Under the pieces are notes generated by a model that searched no databases, had not been told where the DNA came from, and was given only the letters and a program-made list of their open reading frames with translations. Made by a program: the position numbers and the translations under genes. Shown one piece after another: positions 11,352 to 63,585 of a stretch of 64,000 bases of DNA. Each line of letters begins with the position of its first letter. Position 1 is the stretch's first letter. Origin of the DNA: Felixounavirus LF82P1; the sequence record OZ035762.1. One strand, written 5' to 3'.

Positions 11352-12095
11352 ATGAGTAATATTATAGCATTTACTGGAAAGGCGCGTTCTGGAAAAGACA
11401 CCTCATGTTCTATTGTGAAGAACATCTTAGAGGATGAGCACGGCTACAATGTTGCAGTAATGGCCTTTGCAGACAACCTTAAACTATCTGCATCAAAGAT
11501 ATTTGACTTGACTTGGAATGACCTGTACGGTGAAACTAAAGAGACTCCGCAGGTATTTGACTTATCATATCATGAACTGATGTTTAAAGTTACGGAAGCT
11601 ATGGAGTTCACCTTCAGGGATGAACGTTACCATATGGACTTCAAGCTTATGTCAGAGTTAACCGGACGATTAATCATGGAGCTTAAGAAGGTTGCTAAAC
11701 CGACTCTATTGACACGTCTGGGGTTTAGTAAAAAGTATAAATTCTCATCAAGACAAATTCAACAGATTTGGGGTACTGAAGTTGTCCGTAAAGTAATGGG
11801 CGACAAGTTCTGGTCTAAAGACCTTGAAAAAAGAATGGTTAGATTCCATGAAATGTGCTCACTTAGAAACCAATATGGCTTTGTCTTAATCAGTGATTTA
11901 AGATTTGACTCTGAAGCTGAATGGCTGAGTAGATTTGCACACCAAACTATTGAAGTAAAAAGAGACAATGTGGACAAAGTTTCATCACATGTTTCAGAAA
12001 ATGGGATTTCTACAAAATATGAGCGTGACATTATTCATAATAATGGTACTCTTGCAGACCTTGAGAACAAGCTAAGAGCCATCATTAAAGTTTAA
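11352..12095 (+). CDS. P-loop kinase, deoxynucleoside monophosphate kinase-like
   Basis: 247 aa; N-terminal GKARSGKDT Walker A resembling T4 gp1-type dNMP kinase. Confidence 0.5.
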   Translation: MSNIIAFTGKARSGKDTSCSIVKNILEDEHGYNVAVMAFADNLKLSASKIFDLTWNDLYGETKETPQVFDLSYHELMFKVTEAMEFTFRDERYHMDFKLMSELTGRLIMELKKVAKPTLLTRLGFSKKYKFSSRQIQQIWGTEVVRKVMGDKFWSKDLEKRMVRFHEMCSLRNQYGFVLISDLRFDSEAEWLSRFAHQTIEVKRDNVDKVSSHVSENGISTKYERDIIHNNGTLADLENKLRAIIKV

Positions 12096-27852: not shown

Positions 27853-27865
27853 GCAGATACTATAA

Positions 27866-27889
27866 GGGAACTGTAAAGGTTCCCTTTTT
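27866..27889 (+). terminator. rho-independent terminator
   Basis: GGGAAC-TGTAAAG-GTTCCC + TTTTT. Confidence 0.6.
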
Positions 27890-27903: not shown

Positions 27904-28419
27904 ATGTATCTGTCAAACCTGAAACGTTCTGCTGCAATGTCAGTGTTAAGACTCAGTTTTGATGAGCGTCAAGAGTTTATAGACTCCCACAAATATGACC
28001 CTTCAAATTCTAATCACATGGTTCTTTGGAATCGTGATAACTTCCGTGAAAGAGCACTTGTCCGTTATTACCCACACTACACAATAGATAACCTGTATGA
28101 ATGGTGTGTTGTGAAGAACACCATTGCAACACTGAACAATCTTTGCAGGTATACGGGTAAGCAAACATTTACATTAGGTCATCACAAACCTGTTACAAAA
28201 GGTGGTGAACATCACTGTGCAAACTGGTTTATCCAAACTAAAGCTGATAACCAGAAGCAAGGAGATAGCCTCCTAAGTATCCCTAAGATGACCTATGAAG
28301 AGCAAGAGAAATATATCAAAAATAATATGCCAGATGTGCTTGACAACAACTATACAGATTTGGCAATATCTCTCCTGTTGAAGTTCGAGACAGTTTATAG
28401 GGCAACTTATAATGGCTAA
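27904..28419 (+). CDS. HNH endonuclease
   Basis: 171 aa; LGHHKPVTKGGEHHCANWFIQTKADN HNH-like motif. Confidence 0.5.
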   Translation: MYLSNLKRSAAMSVLRLSFDERQEFIDSHKYDPSNSNHMVLWNRDNFRERALVRYYPHYTIDNLYEWCVVKNTIATLNNLCRYTGKQTFTLGHHKPVTKGGEHHCANWFIQTKADNQKQGDSLLSIPKMTYEEQEKYIKNNMPDVLDNNYTDLAISLLLKFETVYRATYNG

Positions 28420-28690
28420 AGAAAAGTGGGAGATTTTACCATTAGTCAGTGAAGGAGGTAATGGTTGTGAAATGTACATGATACGTGGTCATGTTCCAGA
28501 GCCAATTGCACTTGAGATGGTAAACAACTTTACAGATGGTTCTTACAAAGACTTAGGCGAACCAACTGTCAAGCAACAATGGGTTAAACCTGTACCAGAC
28601 AGCACAGGTAACTGTAGTGTACTTTATCACGTTGTAGACCCTGCAAAATGCAAATCTGCAATGGCAGTAACAAACGTAACTTTTGATTGA
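28412..28690 (+). CDS. hypothetical protein
   Basis: ORF track 92 aa. Confidence 0.4.
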   Translation: MAKEKWEILPLVSEGGNGCEMYMIRGHVPEPIALEMVNNFTDGSYKDLGEPTVKQQWVKPVPDSTGNCSVLYHVVDPAKCKSAMAVTNVTFD

Positions 28691-29583
28691 GAGAGAAAAC
28701 TATGAAAACATCTATCCGTGTTACAGTTCATTCACCAACTAAAGGAACTCATGAAGAAGAGTTTAACATCATCCAATTTCCTTCTGGTGAGATTGGTGGA
28801 CACTTTTCGCCAGAGTTTGTTGATTTCACTGCTTATGCAGCATCATCCATCAACAATGTGATTATGATTGTAAAAGGTTATGATAAGGATACATTGTTTG
28901 CTGTGGCACTTGCTAAAGAAGCAATTGATGATTTAATTCCTCATGATTATGCTTTAAAGACTGTCATCTTTTACTACTTACCAAATGCACGTTATGACCG
29001 TCACATGTTTAAAGGCGACGCAGCAGCTTTAAAGGTTTTTGCTAAACAGGTAAATGCAATGGGATTTGGTGCAGTCTGTGCAGTTGACCCTCACAGTTAC
29101 GTTCCAGATAACCTGTTTAACTGCTTCCAGAGTATTCCTCAAAAGGAGATTGCAGTCCACTATGCAAATGACCCACTGGTTGATTACTTAGTAGCCCCAG
29201 ATGCAGGTGCTGCTAAGAAGGTTGCAGAGACCGCTAAAGAGGTGGATAAACCATATATCACAATGTCTAAGGTGCGTAACCTTAAGACTGGTGAAATTAC
29301 TGGTATGCGAATCCTTGATGATGTTGATTTGACAGATAAAACCGTCATGATTCTGGATGATATCTGTGATGGTGGTCGAACCTTCATAGAAGCAGCTAAG
29401 CATCTTCGTGAAGCAGGTGCAAAACGTGTGGAACTCTATGTAACACATGGTATCTTCTCTAAAGATGTTGAAAACCTTCTTGACAATGGCATTGACCACA
29501 TCTACACTACAAACTCTTTAGGGGAAGCTAAAGACCGTGGCTTAACACATTATGGTCAAGTTACTGTAGCAAACCTTGATTGA
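28687..29583 (+). CDS. ribose-phosphate pyrophosphokinase-like (Prs fold; possible ADP-ribose pyrophosphokinase of NAD+ reconstitution pathway)
   Basis: 298 aa; PRTase-type motif VMILDDICDGGRT and PDAGAAKK; adjacent to NAMPT-like gene. Confidence 0.65.
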   Translation: MREKTMKTSIRVTVHSPTKGTHEEEFNIIQFPSGEIGGHFSPEFVDFTAYAASSINNVIMIVKGYDKDTLFAVALAKEAIDDLIPHDYALKTVIFYYLPNARYDRHMFKGDAAALKVFAKQVNAMGFGAVCAVDPHSYVPDNLFNCFQSIPQKEIAVHYANDPLVDYLVAPDAGAAKKVAETAKEVDKPYITMSKVRNLKTGEITGMRILDDVDLTDKTVMILDDICDGGRTFIEAAKHLREAGAKRVELYVTHGIFSKDVENLLDNGIDHIYTTNSLGEAKDRGLTHYGQVTVANLD

Positions 29584-29592
29584 AACTTTATA

Positions 29593-29613
29593 GGGGCTTA
29601 AAAGCCCCATTTT
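29593..29613 (+). terminator. hairpin / weak terminator
   Basis: GGGGCTT-AAA-AGCCCC then ATTTT. Confidence 0.4.
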
Positions 29614-29628
29614 GAGAGAGATTAAAAG

Positions 29629-31410
29629 ATGACTAAATCACTTTATGCAGTACCAGCAGGTTTAAATGCAGATGCTTACAAATCTGGTCATGTTTACCAG
29701 TATCCTAGCGCAACAGAGTACTTGATGTTCAATCTGACACCACGTAGCGACAAATGGTTTAACAGCCCCTTAGCAATTGACGGTGTAGTAGCTTTTGGTA
29801 TTCAACGTTTTGTTAAAGATTACTTGATAGACCACTGGAATGCCACTTTCTTTGAACGTGATAAAAAAGAAGCAATTGACGAAATCTTAGAAGTCATGAA
29901 TGGTGTTCTGGGTAAAGATGCTATAGGTCGAGAGCATTGGGAAGCACTTCACGACTTAGGCTATCTACCAGTTGAAGTATACGCTGTAGAAGAAGGCACA
30001 GTTGTCCCTATGCGTGTTCCGATGATTGTTTTCCAGAACACTGTTTCAGGTTTCCATTGGGTAGCAGGTTATCTGGAAGATGCTTTCTCTGCTGAGATTT
30101 GGAAGGCTTGTACCATTGCAACTATTGCATTGCACTACAAACGTATCTGTAAGAAGTGGGCTGACCTTACTTGTGACAACGACTTGCATTTACCTTATCA
30201 GTGCCATGACTTTGCTATGCGTGGTATGTCCGGCTTTACTGATGACGCATTTAACGCTGTAGGCCACTTAACCAGCTTTAAAGGAACTGATAGCTTTCCT
30301 GCTGTGTATACGGCTAAACGAATCTATGGACAGTCCTACCCAATCTCTGATATTGGTAGCTCTGTACCAGCCACTGAGCACTCTGTAATGTGTGCAAACA
30401 TTGCTTGGGAAGGTGGTAATGAGTTGATTGAAGAAGAAAGACGCTTTAAAGGTGAGTTACAAACCTTCCGTCGTTTCTTAACAGAAACTTACCCAACGGG
30501 TATTGCAAGTATTGTTTCAGATACTTATAACTTCTGGAGAACTGTGTCAGAAATCTTACCAGCACTCCGTAAAGAAATTATGGAACGTGACGGTAAGCTG
30601 GTAATTCGCCCTGACTCTGGAGACCCTGTACATATTGTCACAGGTTACAAAGCAATCCACTTAGAGTGTGCTAAAAAGGCTTATTACGAGCACCTAAGCA
30701 AGCTAGAGGCAAGTGATACAATGCTGAACTCTGTCCTGAACATGAAGCTTGAAAACATTAACTATGGTATTGCTGGATGGCTACTGTCAGAAGGCTACGA
30801 AATGGTTGTTGACAGAGAAGACTTTGAAGTTGCTGATACGGTGATGTTGAAGAATGCTTATATGGTTGGTTCTGCAAACGTTGTAACACGTCCTGTAGCT
30901 GAGATTGATGGGGCTATTAAGACACTGTATAACATCTTTGGAGGAACTATCAACTCTAAAGGTTTTAAAGTACTGGATGAGCATATCGGGCTTATTTATG
31001 GCGACTCTATCACGTTGGAACGTGCAAACGAAATACTGAAGCGTTTGTATGAAATGGGTTTTGCAAGCTCTAACGTAGTGTTTGGTGTAGGTTCTTACAC
31101 TTACCAGTACATGACTCGTGACACCTTTGCATTTGCTGTCAAAGCAACTCTTGCAAGCATTGGTGGTAAAGAGATTATGCTTGCAAAAGACCCTAAAACA
31201 GATAGTGGTGTTAAGAAGTCTGCTTTTGGTGGTGTAGCACCTATGTGGGATGGTGAAAATCTGAAAGCTGTAGATGGCTATGGGTTCCAGAGCTTTGCAG
31301 ATGCACTTGAACACCCAGCTTGTGCTTTGCGTCTAGTCTTTAGCGACTCTGAGCAGTTCGGTTACACAACTCTTGGTGATATTCGAAATAATATTGACAA
31401 GCAGCTTTAA
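29629..31410 (+). CDS. nicotinamide phosphoribosyltransferase-like (NadV/NAMPT family)
   Basis: 593 aa; NAMPT-like overall length and motifs (..GSDSxxxY.., HSVM, RPDSGD); paired with Prs-like gene. Confidence 0.7.
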   Translation: MTKSLYAVPAGLNADAYKSGHVYQYPSATEYLMFNLTPRSDKWFNSPLAIDGVVAFGIQRFVKDYLIDHWNATFFERDKKEAIDEILEVMNGVLGKDAIGREHWEALHDLGYLPVEVYAVEEGTVVPMRVPMIVFQNTVSGFHWVAGYLEDAFSAEIWKACTIATIALHYKRICKKWADLTCDNDLHLPYQCHDFAMRGMSGFTDDAFNAVGHLTSFKGTDSFPAVYTAKRIYGQSYPISDIGSSVPATEHSVMCANIAWEGGNELIEEERRFKGELQTFRRFLTETYPTGIASIVSDTYNFWRTVSEILPALRKEIMERDGKLVIRPDSGDPVHIVTGYKAIHLECAKKAYYEHLSKLEASDTMLNSVLNMKLENINYGIAGWLLSEGYEMVVDREDFEVADTVMLKNAYMVGSANVVTRPVAEIDGAIKTLYNIFGGTINSKGFKVLDEHIGLIYGDSITLERANEILKRLYEMGFASSNVVFGVGSYTYQYMTRDTFAFAVKATLASIGGKEIMLAKDPKTDSGVKKSAFGGVAPMWDGENLKAVDGYGFQSFADALEHPACALRLVFSDSEQFGYTTLGDIRNNIDKQL

Positions 31411-31423
31411 AAGTATATGATAA

Positions 31424-31447
31424 GAGGCTCCTACGGGAGCCTTTTTA
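31424..31447 (+). terminator. rho-independent terminator
   Basis: GAGGCTCC-TACG-GGAGCCTT + T-run. Confidence 0.6.
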
Positions 31448-31463
31448 ATTTCTGGAGAAAACT

Positions 31464-38892: not shown

Positions 38893-39678
38893 ATGGGTAT
38901 TGTAAAAATCATCAATGGTGATATCTTTGCTGCATTTGATAAAGGTAAGTTTGACATCATTGGTCATGGTTGTAACTGCATGAACCTAATGGGCGCAGGT
39001 ATCGCTGACAAGATTTCTAAACTTTACCCAAAAGCATATGAGACCGATACAGAAGTTTATCTCTATGCAGGTGGTATAGGTCACAAACCCTGTGAGAATT
39101 TACTAGGTAATTTCTCTGTAGCACGCTTAAAACAAGGTCGTATAGCTAACCTTTACACTCAGCTTAAGACTGGTAAAGATGCCCGATACAGTGCTTTAGA
39201 GTCATCTTTGAAACAGCTTAACAGATACTGTGAAGTCAATCAGTTGAAGAAAGTTGGTTTACCTATGATTGGTGCAGGTATCGGTGGACTTGACCCTCAA
39301 GCCGTCACAGTTATCATCAATCAGGTGATGAAGAGTGTAGATGTTTATCTATATGTCTATGAAGGAGAGATGTACCACAAGTTACTCTCAGGTTGGAAGA
39401 ACTACTGTGAACCAGAATACTTTGCAGGTGTAGCAGTGTTCACAGATAACGCAGTTACCCTCTTCAGACGAAGAAAAGGTAAGATACATCAAAGTAACCC
39501 TCCGGTTGAAAAGATGTCTCTAAGTAACGCTCTAGTTACCCACCTGTCAAAGAGCAATCACAGAATTGCTGTAACATTTGGTAGTGATGCAGAAGCTTAT
39601 ATCTATGCAAGAACTGATGAGGATATTGAGGCAATCTTCTCTTCACCAGAAGTTACCTTCTTAGACGCAAAGAACTAA
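38893..39678 (+). CDS. macro-domain protein (ADP-ribose binding/processing)
   Basis: 261 aa; N-terminal IINGDIF..DIIGHGCNC..GAGIA pattern typical of macro domains; second Gly-rich stretch MIGAGIGG. Confidence 0.5.
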   Translation: MGIVKIINGDIFAAFDKGKFDIIGHGCNCMNLMGAGIADKISKLYPKAYETDTEVYLYAGGIGHKPCENLLGNFSVARLKQGRIANLYTQLKTGKDARYSALESSLKQLNRYCEVNQLKKVGLPMIGAGIGGLDPQAVTVIINQVMKSVDVYLYVYEGEMYHKLLSGWKNYCEPEYFAGVAVFTDNAVTLFRRRKGKIHQSNPPVEKMSLSNALVTHLSKSNHRIAVTFGSDAEAYIYARTDEDIEAIFSSPEVTFLDAKN

Positions 39679-58180: not shown

Positions 58181-58257
58181 CTCTGTTTAGCTCAGCTTGG
58201 TAGAGCGTTCCGTTTGGGGCGGTAAGGCCGGAGGTTCAAGTCCTCCAACAGAGACCA
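58181..58257 (+). tRNA. tRNA-Pro (anticodon TGG)
   Basis: acceptor CTCTGTT/AACAGAG, anticodon loop TTTGGGG, T-arm GGAGG-TTCAAGT-CCTCC, CCA encoded. Confidence 0.8.
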
Positions 58258-58264
58258 AATTAAT

Positions 58265-58342
58265 GTTCCAGTAGACAAAATGGTATAGTCACCACTCTTT
58301 CAAAGTGGACATCTGAGGGTTCAAATCCCTTCTGGAACGCCA
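58265..58342 (+). tRNA. tRNA-Glu (anticodon TTC)
   Basis: acceptor GTTCCAG/CTGGAAC, anticodon stem CCACT/AGTGG loop CTTTCAA, T-loop TTCAAAT, CCA. Confidence 0.75.
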
Positions 58343-58344
58343 GT

Positions 58345-58425
58345 TTTGACAGAAGACCAAATACAGCAAACTTAATCTTATTCATCTGAAGGTAAATCGG
58401 ACAAAGAAGAGATTTGGTCTGGTCA
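58345..58425 (+). repeat. structured repeat copy 1 (AGACCAAAT ... ATTTGGTCT helix enclosing about 45-nt insert)
   Basis: 9-bp inverted repeat; conserved AGAAGACC..TACAGCAA box. Confidence 0.45.
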
Positions 58426-58433
58426 TTAAGAAT

Positions 58434-58510
58434 TGCGGGTATAGAGAAAGGGCGTCTCACATGTCTCATTAGCATGGTATCGGCAGGTTCGACTCCTGCA
58501 CCCGCCTCCA
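58434..58510 (+). tRNA. tRNA with anticodon CAT (Met/Ile-lysidine type), atypical acceptor
   Basis: D-stem GAGA/TCTC, anticodon stem CATGT/GCATG loop CTCATTA, T-arm GCAGG-TTCGACT-CCTGC, CCA; 1-72 pairing imperfect. Confidence 0.45.
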
Positions 58511-58583
58511 AATTTACAGAAGACCGTTTACAGCAACATTTATTAAATTTTTAGCGGAAAAATTGAAAGATACGGTCTGGTAA
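58511..58583 (+). repeat. structured repeat copy 2 (AGACCGT ... ACGGTCT helix)
   Basis: Box AAATTTACAGAAGACCGTTTACAGCAA identical to copy 4. Confidence 0.45.
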
Positions 58584-58593
58584 TACTAAACAT

Positions 58594-58670
58594 GGTTAGG
58601 AAGCACATAAGGTATGTGCGGTCGCCTGTTAAGCGAATGGCACAGGGTTCGAATCCCTGACTAACCGCCA
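58594..58670 (+). tRNA. tRNA-Asn (anticodon GTT)
   Basis: acceptor GGTTAGG/ACTAACC, D-stem GCAC/GTGC, anticodon loop CTGTTAA, T-arm CAGGG-TTCGAAT-CCCTG, CCA. Confidence 0.75.
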
Positions 58671-58739
58671 AATTTAGGAGAGAAGCGATTGCTCACCGAT
58701 TTGTAAGGTGCAAGTCCTTAGCCTGAATAGAAATTAAAT

Positions 58740-58827
58740 GTGTCGTTATCCCGTAGATGGTAGCGGTGGGGACTGTAAATCCCTTGTCATTGAGACTCGG
58801 TAGGTTCGACTCCTACACGGCACACCA
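58740..58827 (+). tRNA. tRNA-Tyr (anticodon GTA), long variable arm
   Basis: acceptor GTGTCGT/ACGGCAC, anticodon stem GGGGA/TCCCT loop CTGTAAA, variable arm about 15 nt, T-arm GTAGG-TTCGACT-CCTAC, CCA. Confidence 0.75.
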
Positions 58828-58832
58828 ATAAA

Positions 58833-58910
58833 GGTTATGTAGTTTAATTTGGTTAAAATACTCCCCTGTCACGGGAGATGATGAGGGTTCAAATCCCTTC
58901 GTAACCGCCA
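58833..58910 (+). tRNA. tRNA-Asp (anticodon GTC)
   Basis: acceptor GGTTATG/CGTAACC, anticodon stem CTCCC/GGGAG loop CTGTCAC, T-loop TTCAAAT, CCA. Confidence 0.8.
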
Positions 58911-58965
58911 ATTTTGAGAGGGCTATTTAGCCCCTCCCTTAAAGGGTTCTTACGAGTATCCTTTA

Positions 58966-59046
58966 AAGGAGCAGAAGACCAAATACAGCAAGTTACTTAA
59001 AATTTCAAGCCAATTTAATTTTGAAAAATTTAAAACTTGGTCTGGC
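58966..59046 (+). repeat. structured repeat copy 3 (AGACCAA ... TTGGTCT helix)
   Basis: Same conserved box AGAAGACCAAATACAGCAA; compensatory stem changes vs copies 2/4. Confidence 0.45.
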
Positions 59047-59051
59047 TCAAC

Positions 59052-59190
59052 AAATTTACAGAAGACCGTTTACAGCAAAACTTAAACAATCTATTTCTCG
59101 GTAAAGAAAAGGCGAAGGTTCGATTCCTTCACTCGGCAGATGTCGAGTTGGTGTAATGGTAGCACTTAAGATGATAAACAACGGTCTGGT
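59052..59190 (+). ncRNA. candidate Y-RNA-like element: terminal helix (AGACCGTT/AACGGTCT) enclosing a circularly permuted tRNA-like module
   Basis: Order T-arm GAAGG-TTCGATT-CCTTC (59114-59130), acceptor 3' ACTCGGC, 4 nt, acceptor 5' GTCGAGT (7 bp complementary), D-arm-like GGTGTAATGGTAGCAC; no anticodon arm. Confidence 0.35.
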
Positions 59191-59338
59191 AATTATCTTT
59201 GTAGATAAGTTATTAAGCTTACCTGTGAGTATGCGACCACAAAGGGTGAAAGGGTAAATTCTAGATTTAAACCCAAAAAGGCACATCGCTACAGACCTTA
59301 AGCAAGTCTGGGTAGCTTATCTACAAAGATAATTTAAT

Positions 59339-59414
59339 GGAAGTGTAGCAGAATGGTGATGCGGCAGACTTTTAATCTGACAGGCGATGGGTTCGAATCC
59401 CTCCACTTCTACCA
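59339..59414 (+). tRNA. tRNA-Lys (anticodon TTT)
   Basis: acceptor GGAAGTG/CACTTCT, anticodon loop CTTTTAA, T-loop TTCGAAT, CCA; paralog of Lys-CTT tRNA with compensatory anticodon-stem change. Confidence 0.7.
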
Positions 59415-59418
59415 ATAT

Positions 59419-59495
59419 GGTTCAGTCGCAGATAAGGTAATGCAAGGGTCTCATAAGCCCTATGAATGTGGGTTCGAATCCCATCTGAACCTCCA
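59419..59495 (+). tRNA. tRNA-Met (anticodon CAT)
   Basis: acceptor GGTTCAG/CTGAACC, anticodon stem AGGGT/GCCCT loop CTCATAA, T-arm GTGGG-TTCGAAT-CCCAT, CCA. Confidence 0.75.
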
Positions 59496-59497
59496 AT

Positions 59498-59572
59498 TGT
59501 GGGTTAGCATAAATGGTAATGCAAACGGCTGATAACCGTTAGAAGAGGGTTCGATACCCTCACCTACAACCA
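59498..59572 (+). tRNA. tRNA-Ile (anticodon GAT)
   Basis: acceptor TGTGGGT/ACCTACA, D-stem GCAT/ATGC, anticodon stem AACGG/CCGTT loop CTGATAA, T-arm GAGGG-TTCGATA-CCCTC, CCA. Confidence 0.75.
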
Positions 59573-59587
59573 AGTTCAATAAAGTTG

Positions 59588-59616
59588 TTGACATTGAGAT
59601 GTGACTACTTTATAGT
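59588..59616 (+). promoter_or_regulatory. sigma70-like promoter TTGACA-N17-TATAGT inside tRNA cluster
   Basis: Near-consensus -35 and -10 with 17-nt spacer. Confidence 0.55.
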
Positions 59617-59820
59617 AACCTTAGTTTTCGTTGCGTAGCGTCTATTTTGCAAATTTAAAATAAATGCAAACGACAATGTTTTTCTGGCAGTAGCTTGATA
59701 GGCTAAACACCAGTGAGGTCTTCCAATCCCTCATCAAAGAATTTGGCGTACTCGCCCACGGTATGATTAATAAGGTGGGCATCTTTAAGGGCTTTCTAAG
59801 AGAGTCTTTAAAGATAATTA

Positions 59821-59902
59821 CGGGGCGTATCTCAGCGGTCTTCTAAACCGCCGTTAACCGAGTAAGTGGAGTATGCGGGTTCGAGTCCTGCCGCCTCGAC
59901 CA
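59821..59902 (+). tRNA. atypical tRNA-like gene, anticodon loop CTTCTAA (TCT, Arg-type), D-arm apparently absent
   Basis: acceptor CGGGGCG/CGCCTCG, perfect anticodon arm GCGGT-CTTCTAA-ACCGC, T-arm GCGGG-TTCGAGT-CCTGC, CCA; only 7 nt between acceptor and anticodon stem, 23-nt region before T-arm. Confidence 0.4.
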
Positions 59903-60045
59903 ATTTAGTTAGCAGATTACTTAGACGACCTAAGCGGGTCTTCCTGTAGGGAGGTGGTCTGTATCTCATGTTTTCCAGAACATGTAAATAATCTGAGAAG
60001 GGGCTTTACAGTGTTGAGATAATACGGTAAGCTTCGAATTATAGT

Positions 60046-60128
60046 ATGGGACGATGTTAAGACTCTAAGGCATGAGCAACGGCCTCCAAAACCGTTTCAA
60101 AGGGGTTCAACTCCTCCGTCCCATGCCA
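60046..60128 (+). tRNA. tRNA-Trp (anticodon CCA), atypical extended D region
   Basis: acceptor ATGGGAC/GTCCCAT, anticodon loop CTCCAAA with stem ACGGC/ACCGT, T-loop TTCAACT, CCA; about 8 extra nt before D-stem. Confidence 0.45.
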
Positions 60129-60141
60129 AAGTCTTATTAGG

Positions 60142-60229
60142 GGTAGGTAGCGGCTAATGGCAGCCAAACAGTCTTGAAAACTGTTGCCACTGTAGAGATA
60201 CGGTGAGGGTTCGACTCCTTTACTTACCG
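60142..60229 (+). tRNA. tRNA-Ser (anticodon TGA), long variable arm
   Basis: acceptor GGTAGGT/ACTTACC, 3-bp D-stem, anticodon arm ACAGT-CTTGAAA-ACTGT, about 20-nt variable arm, T-loop TTCGACT; CCA not encoded. Confidence 0.7.
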
Positions 60230-60388
60230 CCTAATAAGATTTTTAAAGCCAAGCTTCATTCGGATGTTGCTTTGGTATCCCTCGTGTATTGTCGTACACA
60301 CTGATAAAACACCTAGTAGGTGTCACGGAGAAGAGATAATATCAAGCTCTCCAAAGGTTCTAGTCACCGGATTAAACAAGACTATGCA

Positions 60389-60412
60389 AAGACCTTTTAG
60401 GTCTTTTTAGAG
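60389..60412 (+). terminator. hairpin + T-run inside tRNA cluster spacer
   Basis: AAGACC-TTTT-AGGTCTT followed by TTTT. Confidence 0.4.
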
Positions 60413-60487
60413 GGCTTCTAAGGTTATTACAGCTTGTTGTGGAACCTTGTTGCTTAGGTTCTTAGAAGTTCTCTAAAAAGATTTAAT

Positions 60488-60565
60488 GGGAGATTGACGG
60501 TAATTGGTAAACCTATCTCGCTTAGAACGAGATGTTTGAGGGTTCGAATCCCTTGTCTCCTACCA
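60488..60565 (+). tRNA. tRNA with anticodon TAG (Leu by anticodon), short variable arm
   Basis: acceptor GGGAGAT/GTCTCCT, anticodon arm ATCTCG-CTTAGAA-CGAGAT, T-arm GAGGG-TTCGAAT-CCCTT, discriminator A, CCA. Confidence 0.6.
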
Positions 60566-60572
60566 AATTAAT

Positions 60573-60648
60573 GCAGGTGTAGCAAAATGGTTATGCGGCT
60601 GACTCTTAATCAGTAAGACGATGGGTTCAATTCCCTCCACCTGTACCA
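60573..60648 (+). tRNA. tRNA-Lys (anticodon CTT)
   Basis: acceptor GCAGGTG/CACCTGT, anticodon arm GCTGA-CTCTTAA-TCAGT, T-loop TTCAATT, CCA. Confidence 0.75.
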
Positions 60649-60654
60649 AACAAT

Positions 60655-60730
60655 GGGGTCATAGTTTATATGGTTAAAATTCGAGTTTTGCAAACTTGGG
60701 AACTGAGTTCAATTCTCAGTGACTCCACCA
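60655..60730 (+). tRNA. tRNA-Ala (anticodon TGC)
   Basis: acceptor GGGGTCA/TGACTCC (G3-U70), anticodon arm CGAGT-TTTGCAA-ACTTG, T-arm CTGAG-TTCAATT-CTCAG, CCA. Confidence 0.75.
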
Positions 60731-60736
60731 ATTAGT

Positions 60737-60811
60737 GCATCCATAGTTTAAACGGGAAAATTACAGTCTTCCAAACTGAGGTTGAGGGTTCGATTCCCTC
60801 TGGATGCTCCA
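60737..60811 (+). tRNA. tRNA-Gly (anticodon TCC)
   Basis: acceptor GCATCCA/TGGATGC, anticodon loop CTTCCAA, T-arm GAGGG-TTCGATT-CCCTC, CCA. Confidence 0.8.
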
Positions 60812-60825
60812 AATTAAGGTGTGAT

Positions 60826-61239
60826 ATGAAAATATGCAGTACTTGCAGAATACCAAAAGATGAAAGCTTATTCCATAAGAATAAGAACAAGAAAGACGGT
60901 CTTCAAAGTCAATGCAAAGATTGTGCAAGACTCCGTGATGCAAAGAGTTATCAAGCAAATGATAAAAGGAAAGAGGCTATTAAAAGCACTCGTAACTTCA
61001 AGAGAGAGCATAACAAGACTCTAGCTAGAAGGTACAAAGCTTTATGCAAATGTCATATATGTGGTGAGAAAGAACCAGTTGCACTGGATTTACACCATAC
61101 AGACCCTTCCCAGAAAGATTTGAATCCTGCATCACTTTATTCATACTCCACAAAAAGATTAAAAGATGAAATCAGAAAGTGCATTGTCTTGTGCGCTAAC
61201 TGTCACAGAAAAGTACATGCTGGTATCATAAAAGTTTAA
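60826..61239 (+). CDS. HNH homing endonuclease inserted in tRNA cluster
   Basis: 137 aa; CxxC..CxxC and HNH motif CHICG..LDLHH..CANCHRKVH. Confidence 0.65.
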   Translation: MKICSTCRIPKDESLFHKNKNKKDGLQSQCKDCARLRDAKSYQANDKRKEAIKSTRNFKREHNKTLARRYKALCKCHICGEKEPVALDLHHTDPSQKDLNPASLYSYSTKRLKDEIRKCIVLCANCHRKVHAGIIKV

Positions 61240-61240
61240 T

Positions 61241-61317
61241 GCTGCTTTCGTATAATTGGCTATTACACATCCCTTGTAAGGATGGAAATGCAGGTTCGAG
61301 TCCTGTGAGCAGCACCA
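61241..61317 (+). tRNA. tRNA-Thr (anticodon TGT)
   Basis: acceptor GCTGCTT/GAGCAGC, anticodon arm CATCC-CTTGTAA-GGATG, T-arm GCAGG-TTCGAGT-CCTGT, CCA. Confidence 0.8.
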
Positions 61318-61412
61318 ATTCAGAGGTCAAGTGAAAGACCGCTGGTGTCAACTGAAGACCGTAACAAATTCCACGGAGTTGAGTTAGCGGCACAACTTCA
61401 GACCTCTTTCAT
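61318..61412 (+). ncRNA. candidate structured RNA (about 95-nt imperfect rod-like hairpin) between tRNA-Thr and tRNA-Val
   Basis: Nested inverted repeats CAGAGGTCAAGT/ACTTCAGACCTCT, CCGCT/AGCGG, TCAACT/AGTTGA, CCGT/ACGG; contains GAAGACCGT box. Confidence 0.3.
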
Positions 61413-61487
61413 ACTCGCTTAGTTTATATGGTAAAACATCACCCTTACAAGATGAAGAAAAAGGTTCAAGTCCTTTAGTGAGTACCA
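61413..61487 (+). tRNA. tRNA-Val (anticodon TAC)
   Basis: acceptor ACTCGCT/AGTGAGT, D-stem GTTT/AAAC, anticodon loop CTTACAA, T-arm AAAGG-TTCAAGT-CCTTT, CCA. Confidence 0.7.
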
Positions 61488-61488
61488 T

Positions 61489-61566
61489 GTTCCAGTATCC
61501 CAATTGGCAGAGGATGCAAGCTCAAACCTTGTACTAGTGACGGTTCGAATCCGTCTTGGAACACCA
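61489..61566 (+). tRNA. tRNA with anticodon CAA (Leu by anticodon), short variable arm
   Basis: acceptor GTTCCAG/TTGGAAC, D-loop AATTGGCAG, anticodon arm GCAAG-CTCAAAC-CTTGT, T-arm GACGG-TTCGAAT-CCGTC, discriminator A, CCA. Confidence 0.6.
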
Positions 61567-61571
61567 ATTTT

Positions 61572-61647
61572 GCAGGATTAGTTCAAATGGATAGAGCAAC
61601 AGTCTACGAAGCTGTTAATAGGGGTTCGAATCCCTTATCCTGCGCCA
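61572..61647 (+). tRNA. tRNA-Arg (anticodon ACG)
   Basis: acceptor GCAGGAT/ATCCTGC, D-stem GTTC/GAGC, anticodon arm ACAGT-CTACGAA-GCTGT, T-loop TTCGAAT, CCA. Confidence 0.8.
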
Positions 61648-61666
61648 ATTTAAAGAGGCTATTTAG

Positions 61667-62224
61667 ATGAGATATTTGAAGTATGCTTCATGGATTTTCT
61701 TAGCTTTGTTAGAACCATTTGCAGCAATCTTAGCAGTTATCTTAGCACCTTTTGTAGTTCCATTTTACAGTGAGAAGAAAGGACACTTACCTTTCGGATT
61801 TAGATGGATGGAAACTTATGACAACCCAATTGATGGTGATGAAGGTCACGTTAAAAGATGGGCTAATATTAGATGGATTGGTAAGCTTGGTGTCTATATG
61901 CAGAGAGTCGGTTGGCTCTGGAGAAACAAAGCTTATAACTTCTCTTACCATGTGTTAGGAAGAGATGTAAAAGATGTTACTAAGTGGAAAGGTAATATCA
62001 ACGTAAGTTCTAACCCTGAAGATAATCAGACAGGTTATCTCCTAATGTGGAACAGCAATGCTTGGGGATTATTCGCTTTTATACCATCAATTAAAATCTT
62101 TGGTAAACAGTTCTACTGGAGAATTTATATTGGGTGGAAGCTAAAAAGTGTTGTCCCAGAAGAAAGAGCATTCTCAAGGGAAAGAGTTATGTTGGCATTC
62201 TTTATTCATCCACTAAGAAATTAA
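61667..62224 (+). CDS. hypothetical membrane protein
   Basis: 185 aa; N-terminal hydrophobic segments. Confidence 0.5.
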   Translation: MRYLKYASWIFLALLEPFAAILAVILAPFVVPFYSEKKGHLPFGFRWMETYDNPIDGDEGHVKRWANIRWIGKLGVYMQRVGWLWRNKAYNFSYHVLGRDVKDVTKWKGNINVSSNPEDNQTGYLLMWNSNAWGLFAFIPSIKIFGKQFYWRIYIGWKLKSVVPEERAFSRERVMLAFFIHPLRN

Positions 62225-62232
62225 AGATTTAA

Positions 62233-62308
62233 AGGGGATTAGTTTACAAGGTTAAAACCTCGGTCTTTGAAATCGAAGAAGTTGGTTCAATTCCAACATC
62301 CCCCGCCA
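62233..62308 (+). tRNA. tRNA-Gln (anticodon TTG)
   Basis: acceptor AGGGGAT/ATCCCCC with unpaired 1-72, D-stem GTTT/AAAC, anticodon arm TCGGT-CTTTGAA-ATCGA, T-arm GTTGG-TTCAATT-CCAAC, CCA. Confidence 0.7.
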
Positions 62309-62310
62309 AT

Positions 62311-62389
62311 GCTCCATTACTCCAATTGGCAGAGAGGCCAGACTTAAAATCTGTGTTATGTATCGGTTCGAATCCGATATGGAGTACCA
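62311..62389 (+). tRNA. tRNA with anticodon TAA (Leu by anticodon), short variable arm
   Basis: acceptor GCTCCAT/ATGGAGT, D-loop AATTGGCAG, anticodon loop CTTAAAA, T-arm ATCGG-TTCGAAT-CCGAT, discriminator A, CCA; paralog of CAA tRNA. Confidence 0.55.
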
Positions 62390-62394
62390 AATTT

Positions 62395-62470
62395 AGCGGT
62401 ATAGCATAACTGGCAATGCAACAGTCTCTGAAGCTGTCTTATTAAGGTTCAAATCCTTATGCCGCTGCCA
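62395..62470 (+). tRNA. tRNA-Gln (anticodon CTG)
   Basis: acceptor AGCGGTA/TGCCGCT, D-stem GCAT/ATGC, anticodon arm ACAGT-CTCTGAA-GCTGT, T-arm TAAGG-TTCAAAT-CCTTA, CCA. Confidence 0.7.
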
Positions 62471-62501
62471 CTTCTAAGGGTTCTTACGAGAGTCCTTAAA
62501 T

Positions 62502-62577
62502 GTGGCCTTATCATAAATGGTAATGACCCATGCTGTGAACATGGTCTATACGGGTTCAAATCCCGTAGGTCACCCCA
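62502..62577 (+). tRNA. tRNA-His (anticodon GTG)
   Basis: acceptor GTGGCCT/AGGTCAC, D-stem TCAT/ATGA, anticodon arm CCATG-CTGTGAA-CATGG, T-arm ACGGG-TTCAAAT-CCCGT, discriminator C, CCA. Confidence 0.8.
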
Positions 62578-62583
62578 ATTTAT

Positions 62584-62659
62584 AGTCCAAGTAGCTTATA
62601 TGGTTAAAGCGCGTGTCTGAAAAACATGAGAAGAGGGTTCAAATCCCACTGGACTACCA
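62584..62659 (+). tRNA. tRNA-Phe (anticodon GAA)
   Basis: D-stem GCTT/AAGC, anticodon arm CGTGT-CTGAAAA-ACATG, T-loop TTCAAAT; acceptor boundaries uncertain by 1-2 nt. Confidence 0.6.
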
Positions 62660-62675
62660 ATTTCAAAGGTGCTTA

Positions 62676-63410
62676 ATGAAAGAGATGACAGAACAAGGTA
62701 AGGAGATTTTTAATCTCTTAAAAACCGGTAAAGGGTTTTCTAACCCACTTATTACTGGTGCAGCAGTTCTCGGTGGAACCGTAGCTGCTTCTACATCACT
62801 TGTAAGCTCTATTAGTTCTGTAACAGACCCTACAATGCAGGAGAAACTTGTTGCTGCTGGACTTACAACAGTCCTTCTAAACAGCTTTACAACAAGCCTT
62901 ACAAGCACTACAGCAACTACTAAAACTCTGACAGACTACGGTCAAAAGTCTATTGATGAGTTTTCATCACGTATGCAGGTAGCAAAGGGGTATTCCAATG
63001 TTATGGGTGCAGCAGGAGAACAAGTTGGTTGTACACCATTCAGTGGTATCATGGGTGTTGCTACAGAGTATGGTCAAAAAGCTATTGACATGATGAACAG
63101 TACACTAGATAGTGTTAATGGTGTGTTAAGTGACTTACAAGATGCTATTGATAAGGGTCTTGATACTGTTTCTGATTTAGCTAATCAGGCTGTTAGTAAG
63201 ATTAATGAAGGTATTTCAAAGATTACAGCTTATGCAGATGAAGTTGTGCAGATGATTGAAGAAGAAGCTTCCCTTATTGCAGAGTACCTTAAAACGAATA
63301 TCAATGGGTTCTTAGCAGGTATCTTACCAGACTGGTTTGATGATGCCTGTAAAACTGGTGTGATTGACACTATTGCAACACCAGAAATGAAGAGCGCATT
63401 ACAGAAATAA
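62676..63410 (+). CDS. hypothetical Ser/Thr-rich protein
   Basis: ORF track 62613 trimmed to first ATG downstream of tRNA-Phe (AAGGTG RBS-like). Confidence 0.5.
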   Translation: MKEMTEQGKEIFNLLKTGKGFSNPLITGAAVLGGTVAASTSLVSSISSVTDPTMQEKLVAAGLTTVLLNSFTTSLTSTTATTKTLTDYGQKSIDEFSSRMQVAKGYSNVMGAAGEQVGCTPFSGIMGVATEYGQKAIDMMNSTLDSVNGVLSDLQDAIDKGLDTVSDLANQAVSKINEGISKITAYADEVVQMIEEEASLIAEYLKTNINGFLAGILPDWFDDACKTGVIDTIATPEMKSALQK

Positions 63411-63412
63411 AT

Positions 63413-63505
63413 GGAAGATTAACCCTAAAAGGTAAGGGAGCAGTTTGCTAAACTGCCAGTAGCTGAGAAATCGGTGTACCAGTTCAAGTCTGGTATCTTC
63501 CTCCA
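63413..63505 (+). tRNA. tRNA-Ser (anticodon GCT), long variable arm
   Basis: acceptor GGAAGAT/ATCTTCC, 3-bp D-stem, anticodon arm GCAGT-TTGCTAA-ACTGC, long variable arm, T-arm ACCAG-TTCAAGT-CTGGT, CCA. Confidence 0.8.
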
Positions 63506-63509
63506 ATTT

Positions 63510-63585
63510 GAATCCGTGACAGAAATGGCTATGTGCCTGTCTGCAAAACAGGTTTATAAGGGTTCGAGTCCCTTCGGATTCTCCA
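63510..63585 (+). tRNA. tRNA-Cys (anticodon GCA)
   Basis: acceptor GAATCCG/CGGATTC, anticodon arm CCTGT-CTGCAAA-ACAGG, T-arm AAGGG-TTCGAGT-CCCTT, CCA. Confidence 0.8.

What the first reader, a model, noticed from the sequence alone, without database searches (positions are those of the whole stretch)
28687..31410. Adjacent Prs-like and NAMPT-like genes: NAD+ salvage or NAD+ reconstitution (anti-depletion) module
A PRPP-synthetase-fold protein (298 aa; MILDDICDGGRT and PDAGAAKK motifs) lies directly upstream of a 593-aa NAMPT-family protein. The pairing matches phage NAD+ pathways: either classical NadV-based salvage with PRPP supplied by Prs, or the recently described reconstitution route in which a Prs-like enzyme pyrophosphorylates ADP-ribose and a NAMPT-like enzyme joins it to nicotinamide, countering NAD+-depleting defence systems. 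The NAMPT-like protein is about 100 aa longer than typical NadV.
Basis: partly seen in the sequence, partly recalled or inferred. Interest (0 to 1): 0.6.

Follow-up and report, generated by a model that had tools for sequence, protein, structure and literature searches.

The report
Known phage NAD+ rebuilding operon (NARP1)
These two adjacent genes are the already described phage NARP1 pathway (Adps plus Namat), which rebuilds NAD+ from ADP-ribose and nicotinamide after a bacterial defence system has cleaved it; this copy sits in a Felix O1-like coliphage and is nearly identical to the one tested by deletion in phage Bas63.

Summary
The window is 100% identical to Felixounavirus LF82P3 here. 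The pair is orthologous to genes 79-80 of phage Bas63, the operon in which NARP1 was discovered: Namat is 98% identical and Adps 78% identical. The Adps is also 291/293 identical to the phage wV8 entry in that paper's homolog table. The Namat carries the published adenine "selectivity clamp" (GSYTYQYMTRD; K42-W43) and all catalytic-core residues. The Adps keeps the catalytic lysine (K190) and the acceptor-site residues, lacks the C-terminal PRPS segment, and falls far below every canonical Prs equivalog cut-off. The classical Prs/NadV salvage reading is therefore disfavoured. The extra ~100 aa come mainly from two insertions, including a confidently folded Ounavirinae-specific subdomain (residues ~340-427) with no fold match, also present in Bas63. 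Side observations: the 5' third of adps is a mosaic allele, and a Macro-domain gene lies 7.5 kb downstream. Verdict: already known, low interest.

The parts
27864..27886 (+). Terminator-like hairpin plus T-run. Probable upstream boundary of the transcription unit that contains NARP1.
   Evidence: 9-bp stem, 4 GC pairs, T-rich tail. A rho-independent terminator is annotated at the equivalent place in phage ASO1B.
27904..28419 (+). 171-aa ORF (ortholog of Bas63_0077), function unknown, weak HNH-endonuclease similarity. It lies between the upstream terminator and adps, so it is possibly co-transcribed. It is not shown to be part of the pathway.
   Evidence: phrog_3500 (unknown function) and weak phrog_2214 HNH match, E 2e-6; no Pfam family.
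28412..28690 (+). 92-aa ORF (ortholog of Bas63_0078), function unknown. It overlaps the preceding ORF by 8 nt and ends 11 nt before adps. Found only in Ounavirinae among phage records.
   Evidence: phrog_4726, unknown function; 230 phage records, all Felix O1-like.
28702..29583 (+). adps: ADP-ribose pyrophosphate synthetase (PRPS-like), 293 aa. Shine-Dalgarno-like GAGAGAG at 28689-28695.
   Evidence: 78% identical to Bas63_0079. 291/293 identical to the wV8 entry of the published Prs/Adps homolog table. K190 and F26/R97/H131/D167/D219/D220/D223 are conserved with ICP1 and SPbetaL1 Adps. 122 bits on TIGR01251, against 423 for E. coli Prs.
29593..29608 (+). Intergenic GC-rich hairpin (GGGGCT-TAAA-AGCCCC) followed by ATTTTG, between adps and namat. 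It could be a weak attenuator or an RNA-stability element. This is the site where relatives carry an HNH homing-endonuclease gene.
   Evidence: MFE -12.6 kcal/mol for the 45-nt spacer, z = -2.9. Conserved in Bas63 and replaced by an HNH gene in ASO1B.
29629..31410 (+). namat: nicotinamide ADP-ribose transferase (NAMPT family), 593 aa.
   Evidence: 98% identical to Bas63_0080. Best solved relative is SPbetaL1 Namat 9w5w/9w5x, E 5e-128. The AF2 model (pLDDT 93.4) superposes on 9w5x with TM 0.95. SCH motif G488-S-Y-T-Y-Q-Y-M-T-R-D498 and SCL K42-W43 are present. Catalytic residues D15, Y17, F195, R198, D221, H251, R327 and D329 are conserved.
30646..30909 (+). Lineage-specific insertion in Namat (residues ~340-427), predicted to be a compact alpha/beta subdomain of unknown function.
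31422..31445 (+). Terminator-like hairpin (10-bp stem) plus T-run, 12 nt after the namat stop. Probable end of the transcription unit. It is overlapped by a strong sigma-70-like promoter (31394-31421, 11/12 matches) for the next genes.
   Evidence: A promoter is annotated at the equivalent place in ASO1B.

Best explanation
The two genes are the NARP1 counter-defence pathway of a Felix O1-like coliphage (Felixounavirus LF82P3). When a host defence NADase (SIR2, TIR or SEFIR type, e.g. SIR2-HerA/Nezha, DSR, type I Thoeris, Kongming) cleaves NAD+ into ADP-ribose and nicotinamide, two steps follow. [quoted passage not shown] Second, Namat (29629-31410), a NAMPT-fold dimer, displaces the pyrophosphate with nicotinamide and regenerates NAD+ directly. 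An adenine-stacking clamp (W43 from the beta1-beta2 loop, Y490 and Y494 from the GSYTYQYMTRD helix) favours ADPR-PP over PRPP. Shown here: gene integrity, orthology, synteny, conservation of the published catalytic and specificity residues, and the predicted fold. Shown elsewhere for orthologs or homologs: the chemistry (SPbetaL1 and ICP1 enzymes in vitro) and the in vivo counter-defence (Bas63 deletion of genes 79-80). Inferred: that this particular allele pair has the same activity.
For: The window is 100% identical to Felixounavirus LF82P3 over the finding, and 252 phage records, essentially all Felix O1-like, carry the pair. Namat is 98% and Adps 78% identical to Bas63_0080/0079, with equal lengths. 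The neighbourhood is collinear: NrdG, four small ORFs, adps, namat, rIIA, rIIB. In Bas63, deleting genes 79-80 costs about 20-fold plating on SIR2-HerA, NAD+ is no longer restored, and ADPR-PP appears only with the wild-type phage. Escape also persists in a pncC nadR double-deletion host, which argues against an NMN route. The window's Adps is 291/293 identical to the wV8 entry in the published Prs/Adps homolog table, and the Felix O1-type Namats there are labelled 'Adps-associated'. Namat shows the SCH signature GSX-Phi-X-Phi-X-Phi-TRD as GSYTYQYMTRD. Canonical NadV/Nampt differ at this stretch: H. ducreyi GAQTYQRNTRD and Xanthomonas GGALLQKVDRD. The SCL K42-W43 is identical to Bas63. All 20 ligand-contact positions mapped from SPbetaL1 Namat are identical or conservatively substituted in the window protein. 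In Adps, the residues equivalent to ICP1 F18, R87, H121, D161, K185, D212, D213 and D216 are conserved, and the C-terminal PRPS segment is missing. On NCBIfam, Adps scores 122 bits on the Prs subfamily model, like the characterised Adps proteins (98 and 106) and unlike E. coli Prs (423). It is far below all Prs equivalog cut-offs. The AF2 Namat model (pLDDT 93.4) matches the SPbetaL1 Namat crystal structures best (TM 0.95), ahead of H. ducreyi NadV and human NAMPT.
Against: No biochemical assay exists for any Felix O1-type enzyme: the Bas63 proteins did not purify well, so the in vitro work used SPbetaL1 and ICP1 homologs that are only 26-31% (Adps) and 46% (Namat) identical. The window's Adps differs from the genetically tested Bas63 allele in its N-terminal ~100 residues (about 63% aa identity against the same-type FelixO1 allele; 57-63% nt identity against Bas63). 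ICP1 F92, an adenine contact, is Met in both Felix O1-type alleles. Namat homologs can still make NMN from PRPP in vitro, so some classical salvage activity is not excluded. The 88-aa insertion has no known role.
Confidence: 0.93

Rival explanations
1. Classical NAD+ salvage: the first enzyme is a true PRPP synthetase and the second a NadV/Nampt that makes NMN, which host NadR or PncC then converts to NAD+. This would boost NAD+ for phage metabolism regardless of defence.
For: The annotation of nearly all database relatives reads this way. Pfam, PHROG and NCBIfam names are Prs and NAPRTase/NAMPT, and the Namat passes the PRK09198 cut-off. Namat homologs retain about half of human Nampt's NMN-forming activity in vitro.
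Against: Bas63 still overcomes SIR2-HerA in a pncC nadR double-deletion host. SPbetaL1 Adps gave no Prs-type product, and Namat made only NAD+ when both substrates were offered. The window's Adps fails every Prs equivalog cut-off, for example 104 against 296 bits. The window's Namat has the ADPR-PP clamp that NadV/Nampt lack. The same NCBIfam model also accepts the proven SPbetaL1 Namat (594 bits), so that name does not discriminate.
Confidence: 0.04
2. NARP2-type pathway: a Nampt acting with a phage NMN adenylyltransferase, rebuilding NAD+ from PRPP, nicotinamide and ATP.
For: The second gene belongs to the same NAMPT superfamily as KVP40 NadV.
Against: NARP2 Nampts occur in phages without Adps and form a separate clade. 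Here an Adps gene sits 45 nt upstream. No cytidylyltransferase-type or Nudix domain was found in the neighbours or in any of the 20 otherwise unassigned ORFs of at least 180 aa that were scanned. None is annotated in genes 0052-0161 of the collinear Bas63 genome, the part inspected. Published Table S2 labels the Felix O1-type proteins 'Adps-associated'.
Confidence: 0.01
3. Modified NARP1: the divergent N-terminal allele of Adps and/or the extra Namat subdomain change substrate range (other ADPR derivatives) or regulation, so the system is not functionally equivalent to the Bas63 or SPbetaL1 system.
For: The first ~270 nt of adps are only 57-63% identical to Bas63, while the rest of the operon is 86-100% identical. 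The insertion is a confident, fold-orphan subdomain.
Against: All mapped substrate and catalytic residues are identical between the window and Bas63 alleles. The window-type allele is the majority allele in Felix O1-like phages: about 160 records above 90% identity, against about 90 records at 60-80%. The Namat insertion is also present in the functional Bas63 protein.
Confidence: 0.02

Closest known systems
NARP1 of Escherichia phage JohannRWettstein (Bas63), genes 79-80 (Adps QXV81770.1, Namat QXV81771.1); Osterman et al., 'Phages reconstitute NAD+ to counter bacterial immunity'
   Same: Same genus (Felixounavirus), same gene order and neighbours, and same protein lengths (293 and 593 aa). 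Namat is 98% identical, including both insertions and the clamp residues. The Adps C-terminal catalytic domain is about 97% identical, and the intergenic hairpin is conserved.
   Different: The N-terminal ~100 residues of Adps are a different allele: overall identity is 78%, with 57-63% nt identity in the first 270 nt. The window lacks the 345-nt ORF Bas63_0081 just downstream of namat.
NARP1 of Bacillus phage SPbetaL1 (biochemically characterised Adps and Namat; Namat crystal structures 9W5W/9W5X)
   Same: Two-gene operon with Adps upstream. The catalytic Lys (K162 = K190 here) and the Namat catalytic core and SCH motif are conserved. The predicted Namat fold superposes with TM 0.95.
   Different: Only 31% (Adps) and 46% (Namat) identity. 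SPbetaL1 Namat is 491 aa and lacks the ~17-aa and ~88-aa insertions. Its SCL uses R40 for adenine stacking, whereas the Felix O1 type has K42-W43. Its PP loop reads DDLSSFGGTF against DDICDGGRTF here.
Vibrio phage ICP1 Adps (UniProt F1D1Q1; apo, substrate and product structures, PMC13586617)
   Same: F18, R87, H121, D161, K185, D212, D213, I214, C215, D216, G217 and F221 are all conserved in the window protein (F26, R97, H131, D167, K190, D219-G224, F228). The C-terminal PRPS filament/allosteric segment is lacking.
   Different: 31% identity. F92 is Met here, A218-A219-S220 reads G-R-T, and the lid residue F223 is Glu.
Canonical Prs (E. coli b1207) and NadV/Nampt (H. ducreyi NadV 9KE8, Xanthomonas and human NAMPT)
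   Same: Same folds and the same phosphoribosyl/pyrophosphoryl-transfer chemistry. The catalytic His of Nampt (H251 here) and the PRPS catalytic-loop Lys are conserved.
   Different: Adps is 23% identical to E. coli Prs and is below all Prs equivalog cut-offs. NadV/Nampt lack the two aromatic SCH residues (Q/R or G/K in their place).
NARP1-AP (Adps-Adpp-Namat, Vibrio phage Gary; bioRxiv 10.64898/2026.01.28.702374)
   Same: The core Adps and Namat are the same. The window also encodes a Macro-domain protein (38893-39678) that is 29% identical to the Macro protein embedded in the NARP1 operon of the related Vibrio phage Cody.
   Different: Here the Macro gene lies 7.5 kb away, not in the operon. 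It carries an extra ~100-aa C-terminal region. It belongs to a Macro family present in 2,850 phage records, including T4-like phages, which are not known to carry NARP1 (my own knowledge; not checked here). A link to NARP1 is therefore unproven.

Membership tests
NARP1 (Adps + Namat) | [quoted passage not shown] | tested here: met
   The genes are 45 nt apart on the same strand. Adps is 78% identical to Bas63 Adps and 291/293 identical to the wV8 entry of the published Prs/Adps homolog table. I did not recompute a phylogeny.
NARP1 (Adps + Namat) | Adps catalytic-loop lysine (SPbetaL1 K162 / ICP1 K185) and acceptor-site residues (ICP1 F18, R87, H121, D161, D212, D213, D216) | tested here: met
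   K190, F26, R97, H131, D167, D219, D220 and D223 are present in the window protein. ICP1 F92 is Met here, as in Bas63, and is absent in SPbetaL1.
NARP1 (Adps + Namat) | Adps lacks the C-terminal alpha11-alpha12 PRPS segment used for filamentation and allostery | tested here: met
   In alignment A1 the window protein ends 11 columns before the C terminus of E. coli Prs and lacks a further 8 residues in the preceding gapped stretch. The feature is described in PMC13586617.
NARP1 (Adps + Namat) | [quoted passage not shown] | tested here: met
   G488-S-Y-T-Y-Q-Y-M-T-R-D498, with Y490 and Y494 at the positions of SPbetaL1 F392 and Y396. Phi3 is Met rather than the commonest Asn/Val.
NARP1 (Adps + Namat) | Namat SCL (beta1-beta2 loop) supplies a third adenine-stacking residue (Arg at position 3, or the residue after Lys/Tyr) | tested here: met
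   TPR-S-D-K42-W43, identical to Bas63, which the paper cites as the Lys-plus-next-residue case.
NARP1 (Adps + Namat) | Nampt-like catalytic core (SPbetaL1 D13, Y15, F189, R192, D215, catalytic His, R306, D308) | tested here: met
   D15, Y17, F195, R198, D221, H251, R327 and D329 are present. The AF2 model has TM 0.95 to 9W5X.
NARP1 (Adps + Namat) | Enzymatic activities: ADPR + ATP gives ADPR-PP; ADPR-PP + nicotinamide gives NAD+ | not testable with these tools
   Shown in vitro only for the SPbetaL1, ICP1, DyoEdafos and P. foliorum enzymes. ADPR-PP was detected in vivo for Bas63.
NARP1 (Adps + Namat) | Protects the phage from NAD+-depleting defence systems | not testable with these tools
   Shown by deletion of the orthologous operon in Bas63. 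Not done for this phage.
Canonical ribose-phosphate pyrophosphokinase (Prs) | Scores above the curated cut-off of an NCBIfam Prs equivalog model | tested here: not met
   The best equivalog, NF002095, scores 104.5 bits against a cut-off of 296. Only the broad TIGR01251 subfamily model is just passed (122 against 113). E. coli Prs scores 423-533 bits.
NARP2 (Nampt + Nmnat) | A phage NMN adenylyltransferase partner and no Adps | tested here: not met
   Adps is present. No Nmnat-type domain was found in the neighbours or in the 20 ORFs of at least 180 aa that were scanned, and none is annotated in Bas63 genes 0052-0161, the part inspected. Small ORFs elsewhere in the window were not scanned.
NARP1-AP (NARP1 with Macro-domain ADPR-1''-phosphate phosphatase Adpp) | A Macro-domain phosphatase gene within the NARP1 operon (within two genes) | tested here: not met
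   The flanking ORFs have no Pfam family and only unknown-function PHROGs.
NARP1-AP (NARP1 with Macro-domain ADPR-1''-phosphate phosphatase Adpp) | An Adpp-type (Poa1p-like) Macro protein encoded anywhere in the phage | tested here: inconclusive
   ORF 38893-39678 has a Macro domain (32.4 bits, cut-off 22). It is 29% identical to the in-operon Macro protein of Vibrio phage Cody, and its best solved relative is OARD1/TARG1. The family is widespread, including in T4-like phages, which are not known to carry NARP1 (my own knowledge; not checked here).

The most novel reading that the evidence does not exclude
Felix O1-like phages may run an extended, dispersed version of NARP1 with three unexplored features. 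(i) The Ounavirinae-specific ~88-aa fold-orphan subdomain inserted in Namat could have a function of its own, such as regulation, docking to the Adps hexamer, or evasion of a host inhibitor. (ii) The Macro-domain 'phosphatase' 7.5 kb downstream could act as a distal Adpp that feeds ADPR-1''-phosphate, the product of aRES-type defence, into the pathway; published surveys that looked only within two genes of NARP1 would have missed it. (iii) The mosaic replacement of the Adps N-terminal domain could reflect selection by a host factor that targets Adps.
Probability: 0.12. Interest if true: 0.45.

Novelty: already known. Interest (0 to 1): 0.15.

Why it matters
NARP1 is a major phage answer to the many bacterial defence systems that kill infection by destroying NAD+. 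Recognising it matters for correct annotation: nearly all database relatives are still labelled 'ribose-phosphate pyrophosphokinase' and 'nicotinamide phosphoribosyltransferase'. It also matters for predicting the host range of Felix O1-like phages, which are candidates for therapy against E. coli and Salmonella. This instance adds no new biology, because it is the same operon, in the same genus, as the one in which the pathway was discovered. What could be useful is small: a corrected start codon, a description of the lineage-specific Namat insertion, the two-allele structure of adps, and the distal Macro-domain gene as a testable candidate for an aRES-resistant variant.

Tried and rejected
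1. I guessed the Bas63 accession as MZ501111, which is Bas51. I found MZ501086 by stepping through the alphabetically ordered BASEL accessions.

2. I looked for KVP40 NadV as a canonical reference in the last 50 kb of NC_005083. It is not there, so I used H. ducreyi NadV (9KE8) and Xanthomonas Nampt from the PDB alignments instead.

3. A full-text search for '9KE8' gave only unrelated papers.

4. NCBIfam and PHROGs have no Adps- or Namat-specific models. PRK09198 accepts both the window protein and the proven SPbetaL1 Namat, so library names cannot separate Namat from Nampt.

5. phrog_12872 looked like an Adps-Namat fusion family, which would have been a Rosetta stone. The Shigella phage Ag3 protein behind it is 547 aa and, judged from the profile positions matched, lacks the Adps C-terminus and about 240 N-terminal Namat residues. 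It is more likely a deletion fusion than a functional fusion, and I did not use it as evidence.

7. I considered whether the upstream 171-aa and 92-aa ORFs are accessory NARP1 genes. Neither has an informative family, and at least the 92-aa ORF is confined to Ounavirinae among phage records, so there is no evidence either way.

8. I did not build my own Prs/Adps phylogeny. The published tables already contain a 99.3% identical sequence.
Full report
**Observation.** One search confirms two long, intact ORFs on the + strand at the stated coordinates: 28687-29583 (298 aa from a TTG) and 29629-31410 (593 aa). Both quoted motifs are present. Pfam assigns the first to Pribosyltran/Pribosyl_synth and the second to NAPRTase + NAMPT_N.

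The first gene most likely starts at the ATG at 28702, giving 293 aa:
- The TTG overlaps the TGA of the upstream ORF.
- A GAGAGAG Shine-Dalgarno-like element lies 6-7 nt before the ATG.
- The Bas63 ortholog is annotated from the equivalent ATG with the same length.

**Source and relatives.** The 2.7-kb segment is 100% identical to Felixounavirus LF82P3. It is found at 80-97% identity in 252 phage records, essentially all Felix O1-like phages of Escherichia, Salmonella, Shigella and Citrobacter. Almost all are annotated 'ribose-phosphate pyrophosphokinase' and 'nicotinamide phosphoribosyltransferase'. The window is collinear with Escherichia phage JohannRWettstein (Bas63, MZ501086) from the nrd genes through rIIA/rIIB to the tRNA array.

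**Identity with the discovered NARP1.** Bas63 genes 79-80 are the operon in which NAD+ reconstitution pathway 1 was discovered (bioRxiv 10.1101/2024.02.11.579819):
- Deletion makes the phage sensitive to SIR2-HerA and abolishes NAD+ recovery.
- ADPR-PP appears only in cells infected by the wild-type phage.
- Escape persists in a host lacking pncC and nadR, which argues against an NMN route.
- In vitro, with the SPbetaL1 homologs, Adps pyrophosphorylates ADPR but shows no Prs activity.
- Namat makes NAD+ from ADPR-PP + nicotinamide and prefers ADPR-PP over PRPP.

The window's Namat is 98% identical to Bas63_0080 over all 593 residues. The window's Adps is 78% identical to Bas63_0079 over all 293 residues. 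The paper's supplementary tables list the phage wV8 Adps, which is 291/293 identical to the window's protein. They also label the Felix O1-type Namats 'Adps-associated'. This exact allele pair is therefore already catalogued.

**Namat family signatures.** The Namat structural paper (PMC12774641) defines a 'selectivity clamp'. [quoted passage not shown]
- The window has GSYTYQYMTRD (Y490, Y494) and SCL K42-W43, identical to Bas63.
- Canonical enzymes differ at the SCH stretch: H. ducreyi NadV GAQTYQRNTRD and Xanthomonas Nampt GGALLQKVDRD.
- All 20 ligand-contact positions mapped from SPbetaL1 Namat are identical or conservatively substituted, and the catalytic His (H251) is present.
- An AlphaFold2 model built on 40 homologs has mean pLDDT 93.4.
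- It matches the SPbetaL1 Namat crystal structures best (TM 0.95). H. ducreyi NadV and human NAMPT come next.

**Adps family signatures.** In the ICP1 Adps structures (PMC13586617), the key residues F18, R87, H121, D161, K185, D212, D213 and D216 correspond to F26, R97, H131, D167, K190, D219, D220 and D223 in the window protein. All of these are identical between the window and Bas63 alleles. ICP1 F92 is Met in both. The protein ends before the C-terminal PRPS segment, as described for Adps.

On NCBIfam it scores 122 bits on the broad Prs subfamily model. That is like the characterised ICP1 and SPbetaL1 Adps (98 and 106 bits) and unlike E. coli Prs (423 bits). It fails every Prs equivalog cut-off. 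The curated libraries hold no Adps- or Namat-specific models, and PRK09198 accepts the proven Namat too, so library names cannot decide between the readings.

**Anatomy of the locus.**
- Terminator-like hairpins at 27864-27886 and 31422-31445 bracket four tightly packed genes: a 171-aa ORF with weak HNH similarity, a 92-aa ORF, adps and namat.
- The corresponding terminator and a downstream promoter are annotated in phage ASO1B.
- A conserved GC-rich hairpin (29593-29608) sits in the 45-nt adps-namat spacer.
- In ASO1B an HNH homing-endonuclease gene replaces this hairpin, and several other relatives carry an HNH gene within the region.
- No Macro, RyR or Nmnat domain is found in the flanking genes. 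This is the plain two-gene NARP1, not NARP1-AP, a RyDEP-containing version or NARP2.

**The extra 100 residues.** Relative to SPbetaL1 Namat, the additional length comes mainly from two insertions. One lies after the catalytic His (residues ~258-274). The other lies after the RPDSGDP strand (~340-427).
- Among 50,697 phage records it occurs only in Ounavirinae.
- Metagenomic Namat homologs carry insertions of other lengths at the same two sites.
- Three of those have sequences that look unrelated to the Ounavirinae type, so these sites appear to be insertion hot spots.
- Because the insertions are present in the functional Bas63 protein, they do not argue for a different enzyme.

**Mosaic adps.** The first ~270 nt of adps are only 57-63% identical to Bas63, while the rest of the operon is 86-100% identical.
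- Felix O1 itself carries the Bas63-type N-terminus joined to a window-type C-terminus.
- By tblastn, about 160 records carry the window-type allele (above 90% identity) and about 90 carry a protein 60-80% identical. The latter band includes the Bas63/FelixO1 type and the more distant Moogle/Sf-type genera.
- Nucleotide and amino-acid identity are similarly low (about 60%). This looks like recombinational replacement by an old, divergent allele rather than recent rapid evolution.
- The mapped functional residues are unchanged.

**Conclusion.** It is, however, the already published NARP1 operon in the very genus where it was discovered, so novelty and interest are low. The residual uncertainty is only that no Felix O1-type enzyme has been assayed in vitro.

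The most novel reading still open (probability about 0.12) is that the lineage-specific Namat subdomain, the Adps N-terminal alleles and a distal Macro-domain gene add functions not yet described. That gene (38893-39678) is 29% identical to the in-operon Macro protein of Vibrio phage Cody.

Noticed in passing
window 38893-39678 (+): A 261-aa ORF (ortholog of Bas63_0095, 'putative phosphatase') with an N-terminal Macro domain (PF01661, 32.4 bits). Its best solved relative is human OARD1/TARG1. It is 29% identical over 164 aa to the Macro protein embedded between Adps and Namat in Vibrio phage Cody, an Adpp-like protein of the NARP1-AP type. It could be a distal ADPR-1''-phosphate phosphatase feeding NARP1. 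However, the family occurs in 2,850 phage records, including T4-like phages, which are not known to carry NARP1 (my own knowledge; not checked here). The C-terminal ~100 aa are specific to Felix O1-like phages.
   Followed up: partly
window 28702-29150 (5' part of adps): Mosaic allele. This part is only 57-78% identical at the nucleotide level to Bas63, against 86-100% for the rest of the operon. Felix O1 has the Bas63-type N-terminus with a window-type C-terminus. At least two or three 5' alleles circulate in the genus: megablast matches begin at query position 1, 69 or 291.
   Followed up: partly
window 29584-29628 (adps-namat spacer); L012 2406-2897: In phage ASO1B a ~490-bp HNH homing-endonuclease gene sits between adps and namat and replaces the conserved intergenic hairpin seen in the window. 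Several other relatives (skuden, radambza, GEC_vB_BS, VpaE1_ev78) also carry an annotated HNH gene within the matched region, at a position I did not check.
   Followed up: partly
window 31411-31463, versus L006 18355-18757: Bas63 has an additional 345-nt ORF (bas63_0081) directly downstream of namat. It is absent from the window, where namat is followed after 53 nt by the ortholog of bas63_0082.
   Followed up: no
L013 2264-3907 (Shigella phage Ag3 orf00149); phrog_12872: A 547-aa protein/PHROG family whose N-terminal part matches Adps (window residues 62-232) and whose C-terminal part matches Namat (residues 243-587). It looks like a deletion fusion that lacks the Adps C-terminus and the Namat N-terminal domain, so it is probably inactive rather than a functional fusion.
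   Followed up: partly
proteins P0069, P0072, P0073, P0085, P0111-P0118: Chromosomal 495-496-aa 'nicotinate phosphoribosyltransferase' proteins of Klebsiella, Cronobacter, Erwinia, Phytobacter and Kosakonia, on contigs up to 6.3 Mb, are 39-48% identical to the window's Namat. The three included in the alignment (P0069, P0073, P0085) carry the Namat-type SCH motif (GSYTYQYNTRD or GSFTYQYNTRD). This suggests bacterial or prophage NARP1 in Enterobacteriaceae, in line with the bacterial NARP1 reported in PMC12774641. Their neighbourhoods were not examined.
   Followed up: no
proteins P0092, P0099, P0105: Metagenomic Namat homologs (577-583 aa) carry a ~75-aa insertion at the same site as the Ounavirinae insertion. 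Its sequence looks unrelated (…TPHG..G……YNRYDKQYY..DG…), which suggests independent insertions at a structural hot spot.
   Followed up: no
window 11352-12095 (+): A 247-aa deoxynucleotide monophosphate kinase (PF21448, E 5e-21). Phage dNMP kinases are the trigger used by the Kongming (KomABC) NAD+-depleting defence described in PMC12774641, so the same phage carries both a potential trigger and the NARP1 countermeasure.
   Followed up: no
window 58181-63585 (+): An array of 25 tRNA genes interspersed with small ORFs, as in Bas63. Compared with the Bas63 annotation there are differences: tRNA-Arg(acg) at 61572-61647, and Ser(gct) at 63413-63505 where Bas63 is annotated Arg.
   Followed up: no
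window 27904-28419 (+): A 171-aa ORF immediately upstream of the NARP1 genes, with an HNH-like motif (…GHHKPVTKGGEHHCANW…) and a weak PHROG HNH-endonuclease match (E 2e-6). It is possibly a degenerate homing endonuclease sharing the transcription unit.
   Followed up: no
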